NCBI RefSeq assembly: GCF_030013595.1
Contig: NZ_CP122768.1
Direction: 5' to 3' (one strand)
Length of the DNA stretch: 64,000 nt
Source: Escherichia coli
GTDB lineage: Bacteria; Pseudomonadota; Gammaproteobacteria; Enterobacterales; Enterobacteriaceae
In this document: piece after piece, positions 56,001 through 62,000 of the stretch
Numbering within the stretch: position 1 is the stretch's first letter
Layout: each line of letters opens with the position of its first letter
Made by a program: the position numbers

Positions 56001-59000
56001 CGCGTGGCTATCTCGATCAGGCCAAATCGCGCCCTAACCTGACCATTCGTACTCACGCCATGACCGATCACATCATTTTTGACGGCAAACGCGCGGTGGG
56101 CGTCGAGTGGCTGGAAGGCGACAGCACCATTCCGACCCGCGCGGCGGCGAATAAAGAAGTGCTGTTATGTGCAGGCGCGATTGCTTCACCGCAGATCCTG
56201 CAACGCTCCGGCGTCGGCAACGCTGAACTGCTGGCGGAGTTTGATATTCCGCTGGTGCATGAATTACCCGGCGTCGGCGAAAATCTTCAGGATCACCTGG
56301 AGATGTATCTGCAATATGAATGCAAAGAACCGGTTTCCCTCTACCCTGCCCTGCAGTGGTGGAATCAGCCGAAAATCGGTGCGGAGTGGCTGTTTGGCGG
56401 CACCGGCGTTGGTGCCAGCAACCACTTTGAAGCAGGCGGATTTATTCGCAGCCGTGAGGAATTTGCGTGGCCGAATATTCAGTACCATTTCCTGCCAGTG
56501 GCGATTAACTATAACGGCTCGAACGCAGTGAAAGAGCACGGCTTCCAGTGCCACGTCGGATCGATGCGCTCGCCAAGCCGTGGGCATGTGCGGATTAAAT
56601 CCCGCGACCCGCACCAGCATCCAGCGATTCTGTTTAACTACATGTCGCACGAGCAGGACTGGCAGGAGTTCCGCGACGCAATTCGCATCACCCGGGAGAT
56701 CATGCATCAACCCGCGCTGGATCAATACCGTGGCCGCGAAATCAGCCCCGGTGTCGAATGCCAGACGGATGAGCAGCTCGATGAGTTCGTGCGTAACCAC
56801 GCCGAAACCGCCTTCCACCCGTGCGGTACCTGCAAAATGGGTTATGACGAGATGGCAGTGGTTGACGCCGAAGGCCGCGTACACGGGCTGGAAGGCCTGC
56901 GCGTGGTGGATGCGTCAATTATGCCGCAGATTATCACCGGCAATTTGAACGCCACGACGATTATGATTGGCGAGAAAATGGCGGATATGATTCGCGGGAA
57001 GGATGCGTTGCCGAGGAGCACGGCGGGATATTATGTGGCAAATGGGATGCCGGTGAGAGCGAAAAAAATGAGTCGTGATGTGAACTGACTCAGGAACCTA
57101 TCAGATTGAGAGTTACCGTTCTACTATGAGGACCGAATCCTTATATAAAACACTGAGGTAACTCTCATGCTTCATCGTGACAATCTCGCCAGCAAATTCT
57201 AAGCTGACTTGCTCAATCTGGCTGATGAAGGTGCTATGCATACACAGATAAACTACAGATGAAATACCACTCAGCTTAAGAATTACGCCGCTAATGTTCC
57301 TGGCTATGGTTACCTGTTCATTCCCGCTCACGGTTAGCATGTACGAAAAGGGTTCTTGTAACGAGTACAAAAATAAGTCAGACCAAAACCACATGGAGCT
57401 TTAAACACAGCTCGTATAATTTATTAGCAGCGATTTATTTTTACGCTTCTTTAATTAATCATCATGCTTAAATATTTTTTAGCACACGATTATCGCTTCG
57501 CTAACATTTTATTTTACATTCATCATCAATTGATAATAAAAAATTGTTAATAATTTTTTGCAAAAAACAAAAAGTGTTGGAATACTCTCCATCAAATGAA
57601 TGCAAAATAAACAAATTGAGATATACAAAAAGTAAAAACCATTTAAATGAATATTTTTAATTTATGAGCAGAACCCATTAACAATGATTTACTCACGACC
57701 AGAAAAGTAAATAACACCTTGCAATAATATGTATTTATAAATTTATATCATTGATATTAAGCTAATCTTACTTTCTACCCTCCAAATTTATGCAGCAAAA
57801 AAAATAAAAGCAAAATCAATTGGATACACAACAAAGCAATCTCACAGGAAATGATGTTAAATATCTCAAAACTAATAAAAATTACTAAAAAATTAGACGT
57901 AACACACATCCCACACGCCCTGTAGCTCATAGCTTTTATATTTATTTTCTCACATCACTGTAGATAAAAACACGCATTAAAAATGACTTGTAGAAAAGCT
58001 GCACAATAAATAGTTCATATTTAGTCTGTTGCGTAGAACTACTATTCAAAAAATCTTATTAATGAGATAATGAGATTACATCGATAACGTTCTGATGGCA
58101 GGCATACTTATCTGGGTGTGCCTCTTTTTTTTACAACTGTACACGGTGGCGTATGACGAGAAAATATCTCACACAGGATGAAGTCTACAGGCTGATGGAT
58201 GCAGCCCAGAGCATGTCCTTTCCTGAAAGAAATCGCTGTCTAATTATGATGGCTTTCATTCACGGTTTTAGGGCCAGTGAACTTCTTGATTTACGTTTAT
58301 CCGATATTGATGCATCTGGAAAACAACTTAATATTCGGCGTATTAAAAATGGTTTCTCGACAACACATCCTCTTCTTCCTGATGAATATAATTTGATCAA
58401 GTTGTGGCTTAAGCAGAGGAAGTTAATTGAAAACGGAGTTGAAGGAGACTGGCTTTTTCTCTCCCGGAAACGCCGCCCTATCAGCAGACAACATTTTTTT
58501 TCTATCATTCGTGAGGCTGGAAAACGTGCAGGATTAGCTGTAAAAGCACATCCTCATATGTTACGTCATGCCTGTGGTTTTGCTCTGGCTGACAATGGTG
58601 TCGATACCCGACTACTTCAGGATTATCTGGGTCATCGAAATATTCAGCATACTGTCAGATACACAGCCAGTAATGCTGCTCGTTTTAAAGGGGTGTGGAA
58701 AAAAAAGCCTCGTTAAAACAGTACCTTCTGATTCAAAATGTCAGATTCCTACGTTTTCCTCAATTCTTCCATAAAAAAACAGCCCATTCAATTAAATAAA
58801 ACACATAACATGTTGATATTTCTAGCTAAAGTAAAATAATCCCATGATTTGAAATGATTAATCAAAAAGGTCATACCAGTGATTAACTTTCGCTCATATT
58901 GTTAAATAACACAAAATTAAAAACAATAAAAATCAAACAAATTAGATTTATATTCCAAGAAAATTAAATATTCAGGCTATTAAACCAAACCTGACATTTT

Positions 59001-62000
59001 GAATCAAAATGTCAGGTTTTGTAGCAATGGCGTGGACGAGTCTGAATGAAGAAGCCTCTGGTTATTATCAGTGCCTGTCAGTTCACCAGGCTGGCACTGG
59101 AGTCTCTCATCCCAACGGACAGGTATCTCGTGCGGGTGTACAGCAACGTCACTACAGAGGTTGAATTCATTTTAAAGACCTCCTGTGGCTACCTGTTAGC
59201 TGATATCCCTTCGCTTCCTTCGGGGGAGTTGGTTCTTCTGGCTTGTCTTGTCCGCTTGCGGAGTGATGCCGGGCAATGGCAGGTCTGCCTGACCGGTGAC
59301 TCCGACTGGTTCGATAATGCTCCTGCTGCAAGTCTGTACTACGGCTTCCCACGCATCGGCACCATGCTGACAGCGAGTCGTTATCAGAATCAAATTATCC
59401 GCTGGTTACTACGTCCTTTGCCCGGCGATATGAGCGATTTCTGGCTCCTGACTGCACGGGAGTTGAGCGTGCTTAAGATTCTGATGCAGGGCATGAGTTT
59501 CAGTGAGATTGCCCGTTATGAACAACGCAGTTCAAAGACCCTGCATGCGATTGCCACACGGGCATTAATGAAACTTGGACTGGGAACTCTGAGCGATTTC
59601 AGACTGCTCTATACGGGATGCGGTGACAGCAGAGTGAAACGGAATATACGGCTACATGCAAGATATGTCGGACAACATTCCGCTCATCGACTCACTCAGT
59701 ATGTGCAGAACATGGTATCCGGAATTCTTTATCCAGAGAAAGTTGCCGTTGGTGAATCAATAAATTCTGACGCCATTTCCGGAAAAGTACTTTCCGGACA
59801 AAGAAAAAATATGTCTAAAAAAAGACCAGGATTGTTATGACACAGCAGCGTTGTTACTACCCCCCACTGCGGCGCATACGGACTCGCTACAGTGTAGGAG
59901 CCAAAATATTTCTACTGCTCTGGGCTGCAGGATTGGGAGGCACGCTGTACAGCCTGTACAGCGTGCTGGCGTACTGACATCTGTGAGGGAAGGATGCGTT
60001 TCGTTCTTTTCTGTCCCTCAGGAATTGTACCAGCGCAGTTCGCAGCTCTATCAACCGGTTCTGTCGGCAATGTTACCTGCATCAGAACAGAAGAGGAGTT
60101 ACGCAATAAATTGCGGCACAGGCCACAGAGTGTCGTGATATCGGCAGGGCGACCTGCCGAATGCGCTGAAATGTGGTTCCGATTTTATCGGGATCACTCA
60201 TTCGTGGTGGTGTTGTGCGTCGCGCCCTTTTTTCTGCCACCGGATGTGAGTATTTCTGGCGTTCTCAAAAACCTGAGGTTACTGAAACCAGGAATGTCAG
60301 TAGAGCGTGTCATCAGTATTGCAAATGCCTCTGGTGGGTTTTCAGGACTGAAACATGCAGAAAATTTGCCAGTTATGGACAGTTACTCTGTCTTTATGAA
60401 AGAGGTGAATAACCGCACAAAGACAATCGTCATGTCAGAACGCTTCCCGGAAAAGCAAAAGAAGGTGTTGTCGTTACTTCTTGCCGGACACAGCTGGGAA
60501 TACAGTGCGCAATTTCTCAAAACGGGGATAAGACAGATATGGCTTACCGAGCAGTCGCTAAAAAAGCGTTGGGGAATACCGGACAGCATGTCATTGCGGG
60601 AAGCCCTGCTGCTTGGCAGCAATAAATTTCACGGTGATGGAAACGCATTGGAAACAACGAATGCCATGACATTGCGTGAAAACGGAAATACCAACAGGTA
60701 TTCCGTGGTGGTAAATGCAGGGACGCAGGCTTTATCTCTGCATAAATATAAATAAGTGGAAAATTGAAATTAGTTACCAGAATGGAGAATTTCTTCATGA
60801 AAAACAGTAAGGCATTTTACCGCAGCGCATTAGCAACAGCTATTGTTATGGCTCTTTCTGCACCAGCATTCGCTGCTGATAAAGCGGTATCAACTGATTC
60901 GGTTACGCTGAATAAAGATAAGACGACTCTGGATCAAGATGTTGTTATTAACAATACAGCAGACAAACAGATTACAGCCGTAACAATTAATGCGGCAGAT
61001 AAAGACCTTAATGTTACTTTTGGCGGTCATGATATTACTGCTGAATCAACGGCAGACAAAAAATTCGTTGAAGGTGTAAAAGTTAGCGGTAACAAAAATG
61101 TTGTGATTAATGCTACAGGCTCCACCATCACAGCTCAAGGTGAAGGTACCTATGTCCGAACTGCAATGGTCATTTCTTCAACAGGCGATGTTGTTGTTAA
61201 TGGCGGTAACTTTGTTGCAAAAAATGAAAAAAGTAGTGCGACAGGTATATCTCTGGAAGCGACCACGGGAAATAATTTAACGCTAAATGGTACAACCATA
61301 AATGCTCAAGGTAATAAGAGTTCCAGCAACGGCTCTACGGCAATTTTTGCTCAAAAGGGTAGCGTATTGAATGGTTTTAACGGTGATGCAACCGACAACA
61401 TTACCCTTGCTGGCTCAAATATTATTAATGGCCGGATTGAAACAATAGTTATTGCCAAGGAGAATACGGGAACTCATACAGTCAATCTGAATATTAAGGA
61501 TGGCTCAGTAATTGGGGCGGCTAATAATAAACAAACAATTTATGCCTCTGCTTCGGCACAAGAAAAAGGTTCAGCAACGCAAAATTTAAATTTGTCTGTT
61601 GCTGATTCAACCATCTACTCTGATGTCCTGGCCCTTTCTGCAAGCGAGAATTCAGCCGCTACCACAACAAATGTAAATATGAACGTTGCCCGCTCTTACT
61701 GGGAAGGTAATGCTTATACCTTCAATAGCGGCGATAAAGCGGGTAGTAATCTGGATATAAATCTTTCCGATAGTTCAGTCTGGAAAGGCAAAGCTTCAGG
61801 GGCAGGAGATGCCAGTGTATCTCTGCAAAACGGGTCTGTCTGGAATGTTACGGGATCCTCAACTATTGATGCTCTGGCAGTAAAAGACAGTACGGTTAAT
61901 ATCACGAAGGCTACGGTCAATACTGGCACGTTTGCTTCTCAAAACGGCACTCTGATTGTTGATGCCTCTTCTGAAAACACCCTGGATATCAGCGGTAAAG

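What the first reader, a model, noticed from the sequence alone, without database searches (positions are those of the whole stretch)
58717..59045. Candidate invertible switch: 16-bp perfect inverted repeats flank a 246-bp AT-rich segment between a FimB/FimE-like recombinase and a LuxR-type regulator
Seen: TGATTCAAAATGTCAG (58729-58744) and its exact reverse complement CTGACATTTTGAATCA (58991-59006). The right copy sits in a 25-bp near-palindrome and the left copy has CTGA...TCAG dyad ends, so each looks like a recombinase site with two half-sites around a core. The left repeat starts 12 bp after the recombinase stop and the right repeat ends 39 bp before the LuxR-gene ATG. Established: this is the fimE-fimS-fimA layout (9-bp repeats, 314-bp switch), and UPEC FimB/E paralogues flip a similar switch next to a LuxR regulator and an autotransporter. 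Inference: segment 58745-58990 inverts and phase-varies the two regulators and the UpaB-like adhesin downstream. I am not aware of a described switch at this betA-proximal locus. The promoter orientation for the ON state cannot be decided from sequence.
Basis: partly seen in the sequence, partly recalled or inferred. Interest (0 to 1): 0.85.

Follow-up and report, generated by a model that had tools for sequence, protein, structure and literature searches.

The report
Known hyxS phase switch (FimX/IpbA–hyxR)
The repeats are real and the segment does flip, but this is the already published hyxS promoter switch of E. coli, turned by the recombinase FimX (IpbA) to control the regulator HyxR, so it is a correct rediscovery, not a new finding.

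Summary
A perfect 16-bp inverted repeat (58729-58744 / 58991-59006) flanks a 246-bp segment of 24.8% GC, between a Fim-type tyrosine invertase gene and a LuxR-type regulator gene. RefSeq names the genes ipbA (= FimX = HbiF), hyxR, hyxA and hyxB (= upaB). The window's recombinase is 100% identical to FimX of UTI89 and CFT073, the strains in which the hyxS switch was described (Bateman & Seed 2012). That description includes 16-bp repeats, inversion only by FimX, and control of hyxR. The locus (betA-ipbA-hyxS-hyxRAB-ykgH) is the same.

About 1,780 have the window orientation and 15 have exactly the 246 bp flipped, with unchanged repeats and flanks. By inference the window is in the OFF state.

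One thing I did not find reported: about 87 genomes have lost the switch through the same precise 271-bp deletion. It joins the left repeat to a directly oriented copy in the right-end palindrome, on at least six flanking haplotypes.

Novelty: already known. Interest is low.

The parts
58153..58716 (+). ipbA (= fimX = hbiF), a Fim-type tyrosine DNA invertase of 187 aa
   Evidence: NCBIfam NF007370 'tyrosine-type DNA invertase', 251.6 bits against a curated cut-off of 221. 100% identical to IpbA of UTI89 and CFT073. RefSeq note: 'IpbA is also known as HbiF and FimX'. The R40 / H135-x-x-R138 / Y170 motif positions were read from the sequence and assigned by pattern, not by alignment.
58729..58744 (+). 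Left inverted repeat of hyxS (IRL), TGATTCAAAATGTCAG
   Evidence: Identical in UTI89, CFT073 and in the flipped genomes. It is the inversion breakpoint.
58745..58990 (.). Invertible interior of hyxS, 246 bp, 24.8% GC, here in the majority orientation (inferred OFF)
   Evidence: Differs at 4 of 246 positions from UTI89 and 6 of 246 from CFT073, in the same orientation. Exactly reverse-complemented in L001, L002 and L003. 1,780 genomes have this orientation and 15 the other.
58991..59006 (-). Right inverted repeat of hyxS (IRR)
58984..59022 (.). Palindrome containing IRR and a directly oriented copy of the repeat (59000-59015, 1 mismatch at the centre, A59003). Candidate symmetric full recombinase site. 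As RNA it forms a strong hairpin followed by a U-rich stretch.
   Evidence: I4: 19-nt arms, 95%. (RNA fold -25.8 kcal/mol, z -6.9 in the window orientation; -17.6, z -4.7 after inversion). It is the right end of the recurrent 271-bp deletion.
58763..58791 (-). Candidate switch promoter on the - strand: TTGAAT, 17 nt, TGgAAGAAT (extended -10). It points at ipbA here and would point at hyxR after inversion.
   Evidence: My own relaxed scan. It scores only 8 of 12, but it is the only promoter-like site on that strand present in all six strains compared, including the divergent lineage. This is an inference; no transcription start site was mapped here.
58813..58840 (+). Promoter-like site TTGATA, 16 nt, AATAAT (10 of 12), pointing at hyxR in the window orientation. 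Probably not the switch promoter.
   Evidence: The -10 element reads AATAAC in UTI89, CFT073, AVS0744 and APEC O18, so the site drops out of the scan in those strains.
59046..59840 (+). hyxR, LuxR-type regulator, 264 aa
   Evidence: Pfam GerE PF00196 at residues 135-181, E = 3.9e-6. 258 of 265 positions identical to UTI89 HyxR. RefSeq annotation.
59994..60755 (+). hyxA, 253 aa, no recognisable domain
   Evidence: No Pfam match and no NCBIfam match. 250 of 254 positions identical to UTI89 HyxA.
60797..63094 (+). hyxB (= upaB), autotransporter
   Evidence: TIGR01414 autotransporter barrel domain, E = 5e-69. 716 of 766 positions identical to UTI89 HyxB from the ATG 11 codons into the listed ORF. 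hyxB = upaB according to PMC3789825.

Best explanation
This is hyxS, the invertible promoter element of the four-gene island PAI-X (fimX/ipbA, hyxR, hyxA, hyxB/upaB), inserted between betA and ykgH. The tyrosine recombinase IpbA/FimX is encoded immediately upstream. It recombines the two 16-bp inverted repeats and flips the 246-bp AT-rich segment that carries the hyxR promoter. Individual cells therefore switch reversibly between high and low HyxR expression. The window shows the majority orientation, which I infer to be OFF, with the promoter pointing back towards ipbA.

Shown here: the repeats, the identity of the recombinase and the locus, and exact inversions in natural genomes.
Taken from the literature: dependence on FimX, the promoter lying inside the element, and the phenotypes (nitrosative stress and macrophage survival, O-antigen chain length and serum resistance, transient phage resistance).
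Inferred: the OFF assignment and the promoter position.
For: - The repeats are real and non-random.
- The recombinase exceeds the curated NCBIfam cut-off for tyrosine-type DNA invertase and is 100% identical to FimX/IpbA of UTI89 and CFT073.
- The gene order betA-ipbA-hyxR-hyxA-hyxB-ykgH is the same in UTI89 and CFT073. The 16-bp repeats are identical and the interior is 97.6-98.4% identical, in the same orientation.
- Literature: hyxS has 16-bp repeats, lies next to fimX, controls hyxR, and only FimX inverts it (PMC6083910). Whole-genome sequencing detected hyxS inversion in UTI89 and CFT073 only when fimX was overexpressed (PMC6458436). PAI-X consists of fimX plus hyxRAB, and hyxB is upaB (PMC3789825). 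[quoted passage not shown]
- Comparative test: 1,891 of 5,426 complete genomes carry the locus. 1,780 have the window orientation. 15 have the flipped orientation at full length. In three different haplotypes the inversion is exactly the 246 bp between unchanged repeats.
- OFF inference: the CFT073 and UTI89 reference sequences have the window orientation. Recombinase-deleted CFT073 derivatives were reported as 'hyxS locked OFF'. Inversion relative to the reference appears only on FimX overexpression. The only promoter-like site conserved in all six strains on one strand points away from hyxR in this orientation.
Against: - The primary paper (Bateman & Seed 2012) and the 2013 PAI-X paper are not in the held library, so details come from papers that cite them.
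- No reads from this strain were available, so inversion in this particular strain is not shown.
- The best consensus promoter match in the window (10 of 12, + strand) points towards hyxR in the present orientation, which on its face suggests ON. However, it is not conserved in the strains where the switch was characterised.
- One paper describes the PAI-X repeats as 9 bp (PMC11294581) and another as 16 bp. The sequence shows 16 perfect bases.
Confidence: 0.96

Rival explanations
1. The switch is real, but the window shows the ON state. The promoter TTGATA-16-AATAAT at 58813-58840 on the + strand drives hyxR in the present orientation, and the rare flipped state is OFF.
For: It is the best sigma-70 match in the region (10 of 12) and points at hyxR.
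Against: The -10 element loses its final T (AATAAC) in UTI89, CFT073, AVS0744 and APEC O18. CFT073 derivatives locked in the state that the reference sequence shows were called OFF. In E. fergusonii the wild type is the non-inverted state, and the inversion was read as activation of the operon. In the homologous Salmonella T1 switch nearly all deposited genomes are OFF. The region yields no more promoter-like sites than shuffled sequence: 2 found against 3.6 expected.
Confidence: 0.15
2. The repeats are static. The right-end palindrome is only an intrinsic terminator or operator between ipbA and hyxR, the left copy is incidental, and no inversion takes place.
For: The palindrome folds as a very stable RNA hairpin followed by a U-rich stretch.
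Against: 15 complete genomes, on at least 3 haplotypes, carry the exact inversion bounded by the repeats. Published sequencing shows FimX-dependent inversion at this locus. A terminator role for the palindrome is not excluded as an additional function.
Confidence: 0.01
3. About the side observation only: the recurrent 271-bp loss of the switch comes from replication slippage or another recombinase-independent deletion between the 15-of-16 direct repeats, not from IpbA-mediated excision.
For: Direct repeats of 15 of 16 nt lying 271 bp apart are a classic slippage substrate. Both junction variants (T or A at the mismatch) can arise by slippage from either direction.
Against: The deletion end points coincide with the recombinase sites. 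The right site is a symmetric palindrome that could synapse in either alignment. The single mismatch lies exactly at the palindrome centre, where a tyrosine-recombinase heteroduplex would produce both junction variants. None of this is decisive.
Confidence: 0.45

Closest known systems
hyxS, the FimX-dependent invertible hyxR promoter of PAI-X in UPEC UTI89 and CFT073 (Bateman & Seed 2012, Mol Microbiol 83:908, as cited in PMC6083910, PMC6458436 and PMC3789825)
   Same: Everything tested: the chromosomal site (betA / ykgH), the gene order, a recombinase 100% identical, identical 16-bp repeats, and an interior 97.6-98.4% identical in the same orientation.
   Different: Only strain-level SNPs: 4-6 in the interior, 7 of 265 positions in HyxR, and about 7% in HyxB. 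One of the interior SNPs creates a better-looking + strand promoter match in this strain.
fimS, the type 1 fimbrial switch (FimB/FimE, 9-bp repeats, 314 bp)
   Same: Same layout: a recombinase gene, then an invertible AT-rich promoter segment, then the regulated operon. Same recombinase family (NCBIfam NF007370 / NF007371). FimX also acts on fimS.
   Different: The repeats are 16 bp rather than 9 bp and unrelated in sequence. The interior is 246 bp rather than 314 bp. There is one linked recombinase rather than two. Inversion is reported to be IHF-independent (my recollection of the Bateman & Seed abstract, not checked here). FimB and FimE do not invert hyxS. The right site is a long palindrome.
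ipuS, the switch controlling ipuR and upaE in CFT073 (Battaglioli et al. 2018, PMC6083910)
   Same: A Fim-type recombinase next to a roughly 260-bp switch, followed by a LuxR-type regulator and an autotransporter. The half-sites are reported to resemble those of hyxS.
   Different: A different island with different genes (ipuA/ipuB, ipuR, upaE). The repeats are 7 bp. Four or five recombinases invert it. Inversion changes the IpuA C-terminus, whereas here the ipbA stop codon lies 12 bp outside the switch.
Salmonella T1-antigen switch (STM0716 recombinase; Nat Commun 2024, PMC11294581)
   Same: The recombinase is reported as 72% identical to FimX. The switch is about 269 bp, with inverted repeats reported as identical in sequence to those of PAI-X. 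A HyxA-like gene lies downstream. Deposited genomes are almost all OFF.
   Different: It controls a surface polysaccharide cluster rather than hyxRAB. I did not compare the sequences myself.

Membership tests
hyxS (PAI-X switch of E. coli) | Lies between fimX/ipbA and hyxR in the island inserted between betA and ykgH | tested here: met
   Window ORFs and RefSeq annotation. UTI89 and CFT073 have the same order.
hyxS (PAI-X switch of E. coli) | 16-bp inverted repeats bound the element | tested here: met
   A perfect 16-bp inverted repeat. The literature states 16 bp for hyxS (PMC6083910). The repeats are identical in UTI89 and CFT073.
hyxS (PAI-X switch of E. coli) | The linked recombinase is FimX/IpbA | tested here: met
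   188 of 188 positions (including the stop) identical to the UTI89 and CFT073 proteins.
hyxS (PAI-X switch of E. coli) | Inversion depends on FimX and not on FimB or FimE | not testable with these tools
   Literature only. Indirect support: six genomes with an IS66-truncated ipbA all sit in the flipped orientation, as expected for a locked switch.
Fim-type tyrosine-recombinase promoter inversion switches (fimS / hyxS / ipuS) | An adjacent FimB/FimE-family tyrosine invertase with the catalytic R-H-R-Y residues | tested here: met
   NF007370 at 251.6 bits, above the cut-off of 221. R40, H135, R138 and Y170 are present in the expected motifs (assigned by pattern).
Fim-type tyrosine-recombinase promoter inversion switches (fimS / hyxS / ipuS) | Both orientations occur, with breakpoints inside the inverted repeats | tested here: met
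   1,780 genomes in one orientation and 15 in the other. Base-exact inversion in L001, L002 and L003.
Fim-type tyrosine-recombinase promoter inversion switches (fimS / hyxS / ipuS) | The invertible segment carries the promoter of the downstream gene | tested here: inconclusive
   Consensus scans give weak and conflicting candidates. The literature states that the hyxR promoter region is inverted.
Fim-type tyrosine-recombinase promoter inversion switches (fimS / hyxS / ipuS) | Downstream expression differs between the two orientations | not testable with these tools
   Literature only.

The most novel reading that the evidence does not exclude
The right end of hyxS is a symmetric full recombinase site: a 33-bp perfect palindrome whose only asymmetry is its central base pair. 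IpbA/FimX could therefore pair it with the left site in either alignment. One alignment gives the known inversion. The other excises the 271-bp switch as a circle and fuses ipbA directly to hyxR. That would make hyxS a phase switch with a built-in, irreversible self-deletion route. About 4.6% of locus-bearing complete genomes (69 + 18 of 1,891) have taken it, on at least six flanking haplotypes. I found no mention of this deletion in the papers I could read, but the two primary PAI-X papers were not available.
Probability: 0.4. Interest if true: 0.35.

Novelty: already known. Interest (0 to 1): 0.1.

Why it matters
As a finding it adds nothing to the field. hyxS has been known since 2012 and the genes are named in RefSeq. 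The value of this check is negative: the locus should not be carried forward as a candidate new switch.

Two by-products may interest people who work on Fim-type recombinases:
- A census of the switch state in 5,426 complete genomes: about 94% of locus-bearing genomes in the reference orientation, 0.8% flipped, 4.6% with the switch precisely deleted, and about 0.5% otherwise disrupted.
- The recurrent precise deletion, together with natural locked-flipped strains that have an IS66-truncated recombinase. These are ready-made natural 'locked' alleles for studying HyxR-dependent phenotypes such as O-antigen length, serum resistance and phage resistance.

Tried and rejected
- The primary paper (PMID 22221182 / PMC3809820), the protocol paper PMC5084626 and the 2013 PAI-X paper PMC3749053 could not be read because they are not held. 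The mapped transcription start site and the published ON/OFF definition could therefore not be checked directly.
- Rfam search at E <= 1 on 56900-60100: no match.
- NCBIfam found nothing for HyxR, HyxA, the 93-aa ORF at 57113-57394 or the ykgH-like ORF.
- Pfam found nothing for HyxA.
- Deciding ON or OFF from promoter consensus alone was rejected as unreliable. The region has fewer promoter-like sites than its shuffles, and the best one is strain-specific.
- The built-in terminator scan did not list the right-end palindrome, although it folds strongly. I do not claim a terminator function.
- A static terminator or operator reading of the repeats was rejected because of the flipped genomes.
- A literature search for the 271-bp deletion found nothing relevant.
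Full report
**1. Observation**

TGATTCAAAATGTCAG lies at 58729-58744, and its exact reverse complement lies at 58991-59006. Allowing up to two mismatches, the 16-mer has only three sites in the 64-kb window. The third is a + strand copy at 59000-59015 with one mismatch. 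Dinucleotide-preserving shuffles gave a mean of 0.02 sites, and none of 100 shuffles reached three.

The interior, 58745-58990, is 246 bp at 24.8% GC, against 51% for the window. The upstream ORF (58153-58716) stops 12 bp before the left repeat. The downstream ORF starts at 59046, 39 bp after the right repeat.

**2. What the genes are**

- The upstream protein scores 251.6 bits on NCBIfam NF007370, 'tyrosine-type DNA invertase', whose curated cut-off is 221.
- The downstream 264-aa protein has a GerE/LuxR helix-turn-helix domain at residues 135-181.
- The next protein (253 aa) has no Pfam or NCBIfam match.
- The fourth is an autotransporter, TIGR01414, E = 5e-69.

A megablast of 58100-59900 against 5,426 complete E. 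coli genomes found the locus in about 1,900 of them. RefSeq annotates it there as ipbA ('IpbA is also known as HbiF and FimX'), hyxR, hyxA and hyxB.

**3. It is the published hyxS switch**

The literature held in the library says the following:
- hyxS is a phase-variable element next to fimX in CFT073 and UTI89. Its inversion regulates the LuxR-type regulator hyxR, only FimX inverts it, and its inverted repeats are 16 bp (PMC6083910).
- Whole-genome sequencing detected inversion at hyxS in both strains only when fimX was overexpressed (PMC6458436).
- fimX and hyxRAB form the four-gene island PAI-X, and hyxB is upaB (PMC3789825).

I fetched the UTI89 and CFT073 chromosomes. Both have betA-ipbA-hyxR-hyxA-hyxB-ykgH, as in the window. 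The window's IpbA is identical at every residue to both. The two 16-bp repeats are identical and equally placed. The 246-bp interior differs at 4 positions from UTI89 and 6 from CFT073, and has the same orientation. The element is already known.

**4.

I built a 551-bp query with the 246-bp interior reverse-complemented and compared it with the native 58600-59150.
- 1,891 genomes match either query.
- 1,780 cover at least 80% of the native version.
- 15 cover 100% of the flipped version.

In three flipped genomes on different haplotypes (AVS0744, APEC O18, Eco_24-2013), the inversion is exactly the 246 bp between unchanged repeats and unchanged flanks. Both orientations therefore exist in nature, with breakpoints in the repeats. 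This is independent support for what the literature reports.

Six of the 15 flipped genomes belong to a divergent lineage in which an IS66 element has removed all but the last 114 bp of ipbA. They look like naturally locked strains.

**5. Which state is the window in?**

This could not be read from the primary paper, which is not held. I infer OFF for four reasons:
- The CFT073 and UTI89 references share the window orientation.
- CFT073 derivatives lacking all recombinases were reported as 'hyxS locked OFF'.
- Inversion relative to the reference needs FimX overexpression.
- In E. fergusonii the wild type is the non-inverted state, and the inversion selected by phage was read as activation of the operon.

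Sequence alone is ambiguous. The best consensus promoter (TTGATA-16-AATAAT, 58813-58840, + strand) points at hyxR, but its -10 element reads AATAAC in UTI89, CFT073 and others. A weaker extended -10 candidate on the - strand (TTGAAT-17-TGgAAGAAT, 58791-58763) is present in all six strains compared. After inversion it would sit just inside the hyxR-proximal repeat. I give the OFF reading about 0.8.

**6. How it works**

*Shown here:* the sites, the enzyme family and identity, and natural inversions.
*From the literature:* FimX-catalysed bidirectional inversion of the hyxR promoter. HyxR affects hmpA and nitrosative stress, macrophage survival, O-antigen chain length and serum resistance, and reversible phage resistance.
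*Inference from the anatomy:* each site can be read as two arms around a 7-bp centre, TGA(T/A)TCA. The right site has two perfect arms (CCTGACATTT / AAATGTCAGG). The left site has one perfect arm and one degenerate arm (ACCTTCTGA against ACATTTTGA). The 16-bp 'repeat' is then the centre plus the good arm.

As RNA, the right palindrome folds into a very stable hairpin followed by a U-rich stretch in both orientations (-25.8 and -17.6 kcal/mol). Whether it also attenuates transcription into hyxR was not tested.

**7. Side observation**

One hit was 271 bp short. The turkey isolate 64.1 lacks exactly the DNA between the left repeat and the directly oriented copy in the right palindrome. This leaves ipbA-stop, 58 bp, then the hyxR ATG.

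I searched with 45-nt junction probes. The A-variant probe was designed so that genomes with an intact switch share no 28-nt word with it.
- 69 genomes carry the junction with A at the mismatch position.
- 18 carry the junction with T, at 45 of 45 matches.

These numbers close the census: 1,780 + 15 + 69 + 18 = 1,882 of 1,891. The remainder have IS insertions or truncations.

All eleven sampled deletion loci lack exactly 271 bp. Their flanks (1,876 nt compared) fall into at least six haplotypes:
- Six strains share one haplotype.
- SA186 is 2 differences from the non-deleted AVS0744 but 26-28 from that main deletion haplotype.
- 'Clone D i2' is identical to CFT073, which keeps the switch.
- Trh52, A24 and 20Y000092 are each distinct.

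The loss is therefore recurrent. The symmetric right site could explain it, through IpbA-mediated excision with a single central mismatch that yields both junction variants. Slippage between the 15-of-16 direct repeats is an equally ordinary alternative. I found no mention of this deletion in the papers I could search, but the two primary PAI-X papers were unavailable.

**8. Verdict**

The element is hyxS and is already known. Interest as a discovery is low (0.1). The only part that might be new is the recurrent precise self-deletion of the switch, which is a modest extension of a known system.

Noticed in passing
window 58729-59015; loci L004, L007-L016: A precise 271-bp deletion of the whole hyxS switch, between the left repeat and the directly oriented copy in the right palindrome. 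It occurs in 69 genomes (A junction) plus 18 genomes (T junction), on at least six flanking haplotypes. One haplotype (clone D i2) is identical to CFT073, which retains the switch. The deletion leaves ipbA and hyxR 58 bp apart.
   Followed up: partly
L003 (NZ_CM176494.1 826807-828554) and hits H40-H45: A divergent lineage, mostly dog isolates and about 95% identical, in which IS66 has truncated ipbA to its last 114 bp. All six genomes have the switch in the flipped orientation, so they look like natural locked strains.
   Followed up: partly
L002 (APEC O18, NZ_CP006830.1), equivalent to window 58695-58764: One extra G next to the A8 run near the 3' end of ipbA shifts the frame. The ORF runs 48 nt further, through the left repeat into the flipped switch (203 aa instead of 187), in a genome whose switch is flipped. 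The effect on activity is unknown.
   Followed up: no
window 58984-59022: The right-end palindrome folds as a very stable RNA hairpin followed by UUUUGU in both switch orientations (-25.8 and -17.6 kcal/mol; z -6.9 and -4.7). All hyxR transcripts from the switch must cross it, so it could act as an attenuator as well as a recombinase site.
   Followed up: no
window 57089-58152: About 1 kb of AT-rich DNA (32% GC) lies between betA and ipbA. UTI89 and CFT073 have no annotated gene there. The window has only a 93-aa ORF on the - strand (57113-57394) with no family match, and a terminator-like hairpin at 58100-58123 just upstream of the ipbA start. Rfam found nothing.
   Followed up: no
literature, not sequence: Papers disagree on the repeat length at PAI-X: 16 bp in PMC6083910 and 'nine base-pair' in PMC11294581. 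The sequence shows 16 perfect bases, extendable to 33 nt at 82%.
   Followed up: yes
hit H28 (NZ_CP065613.1, FDAARGOS_944): This genome carries the T-junction switch deletion together with an IS2 insertion that splits hyxR. It is an example of further decay of the locus.
   Followed up: no
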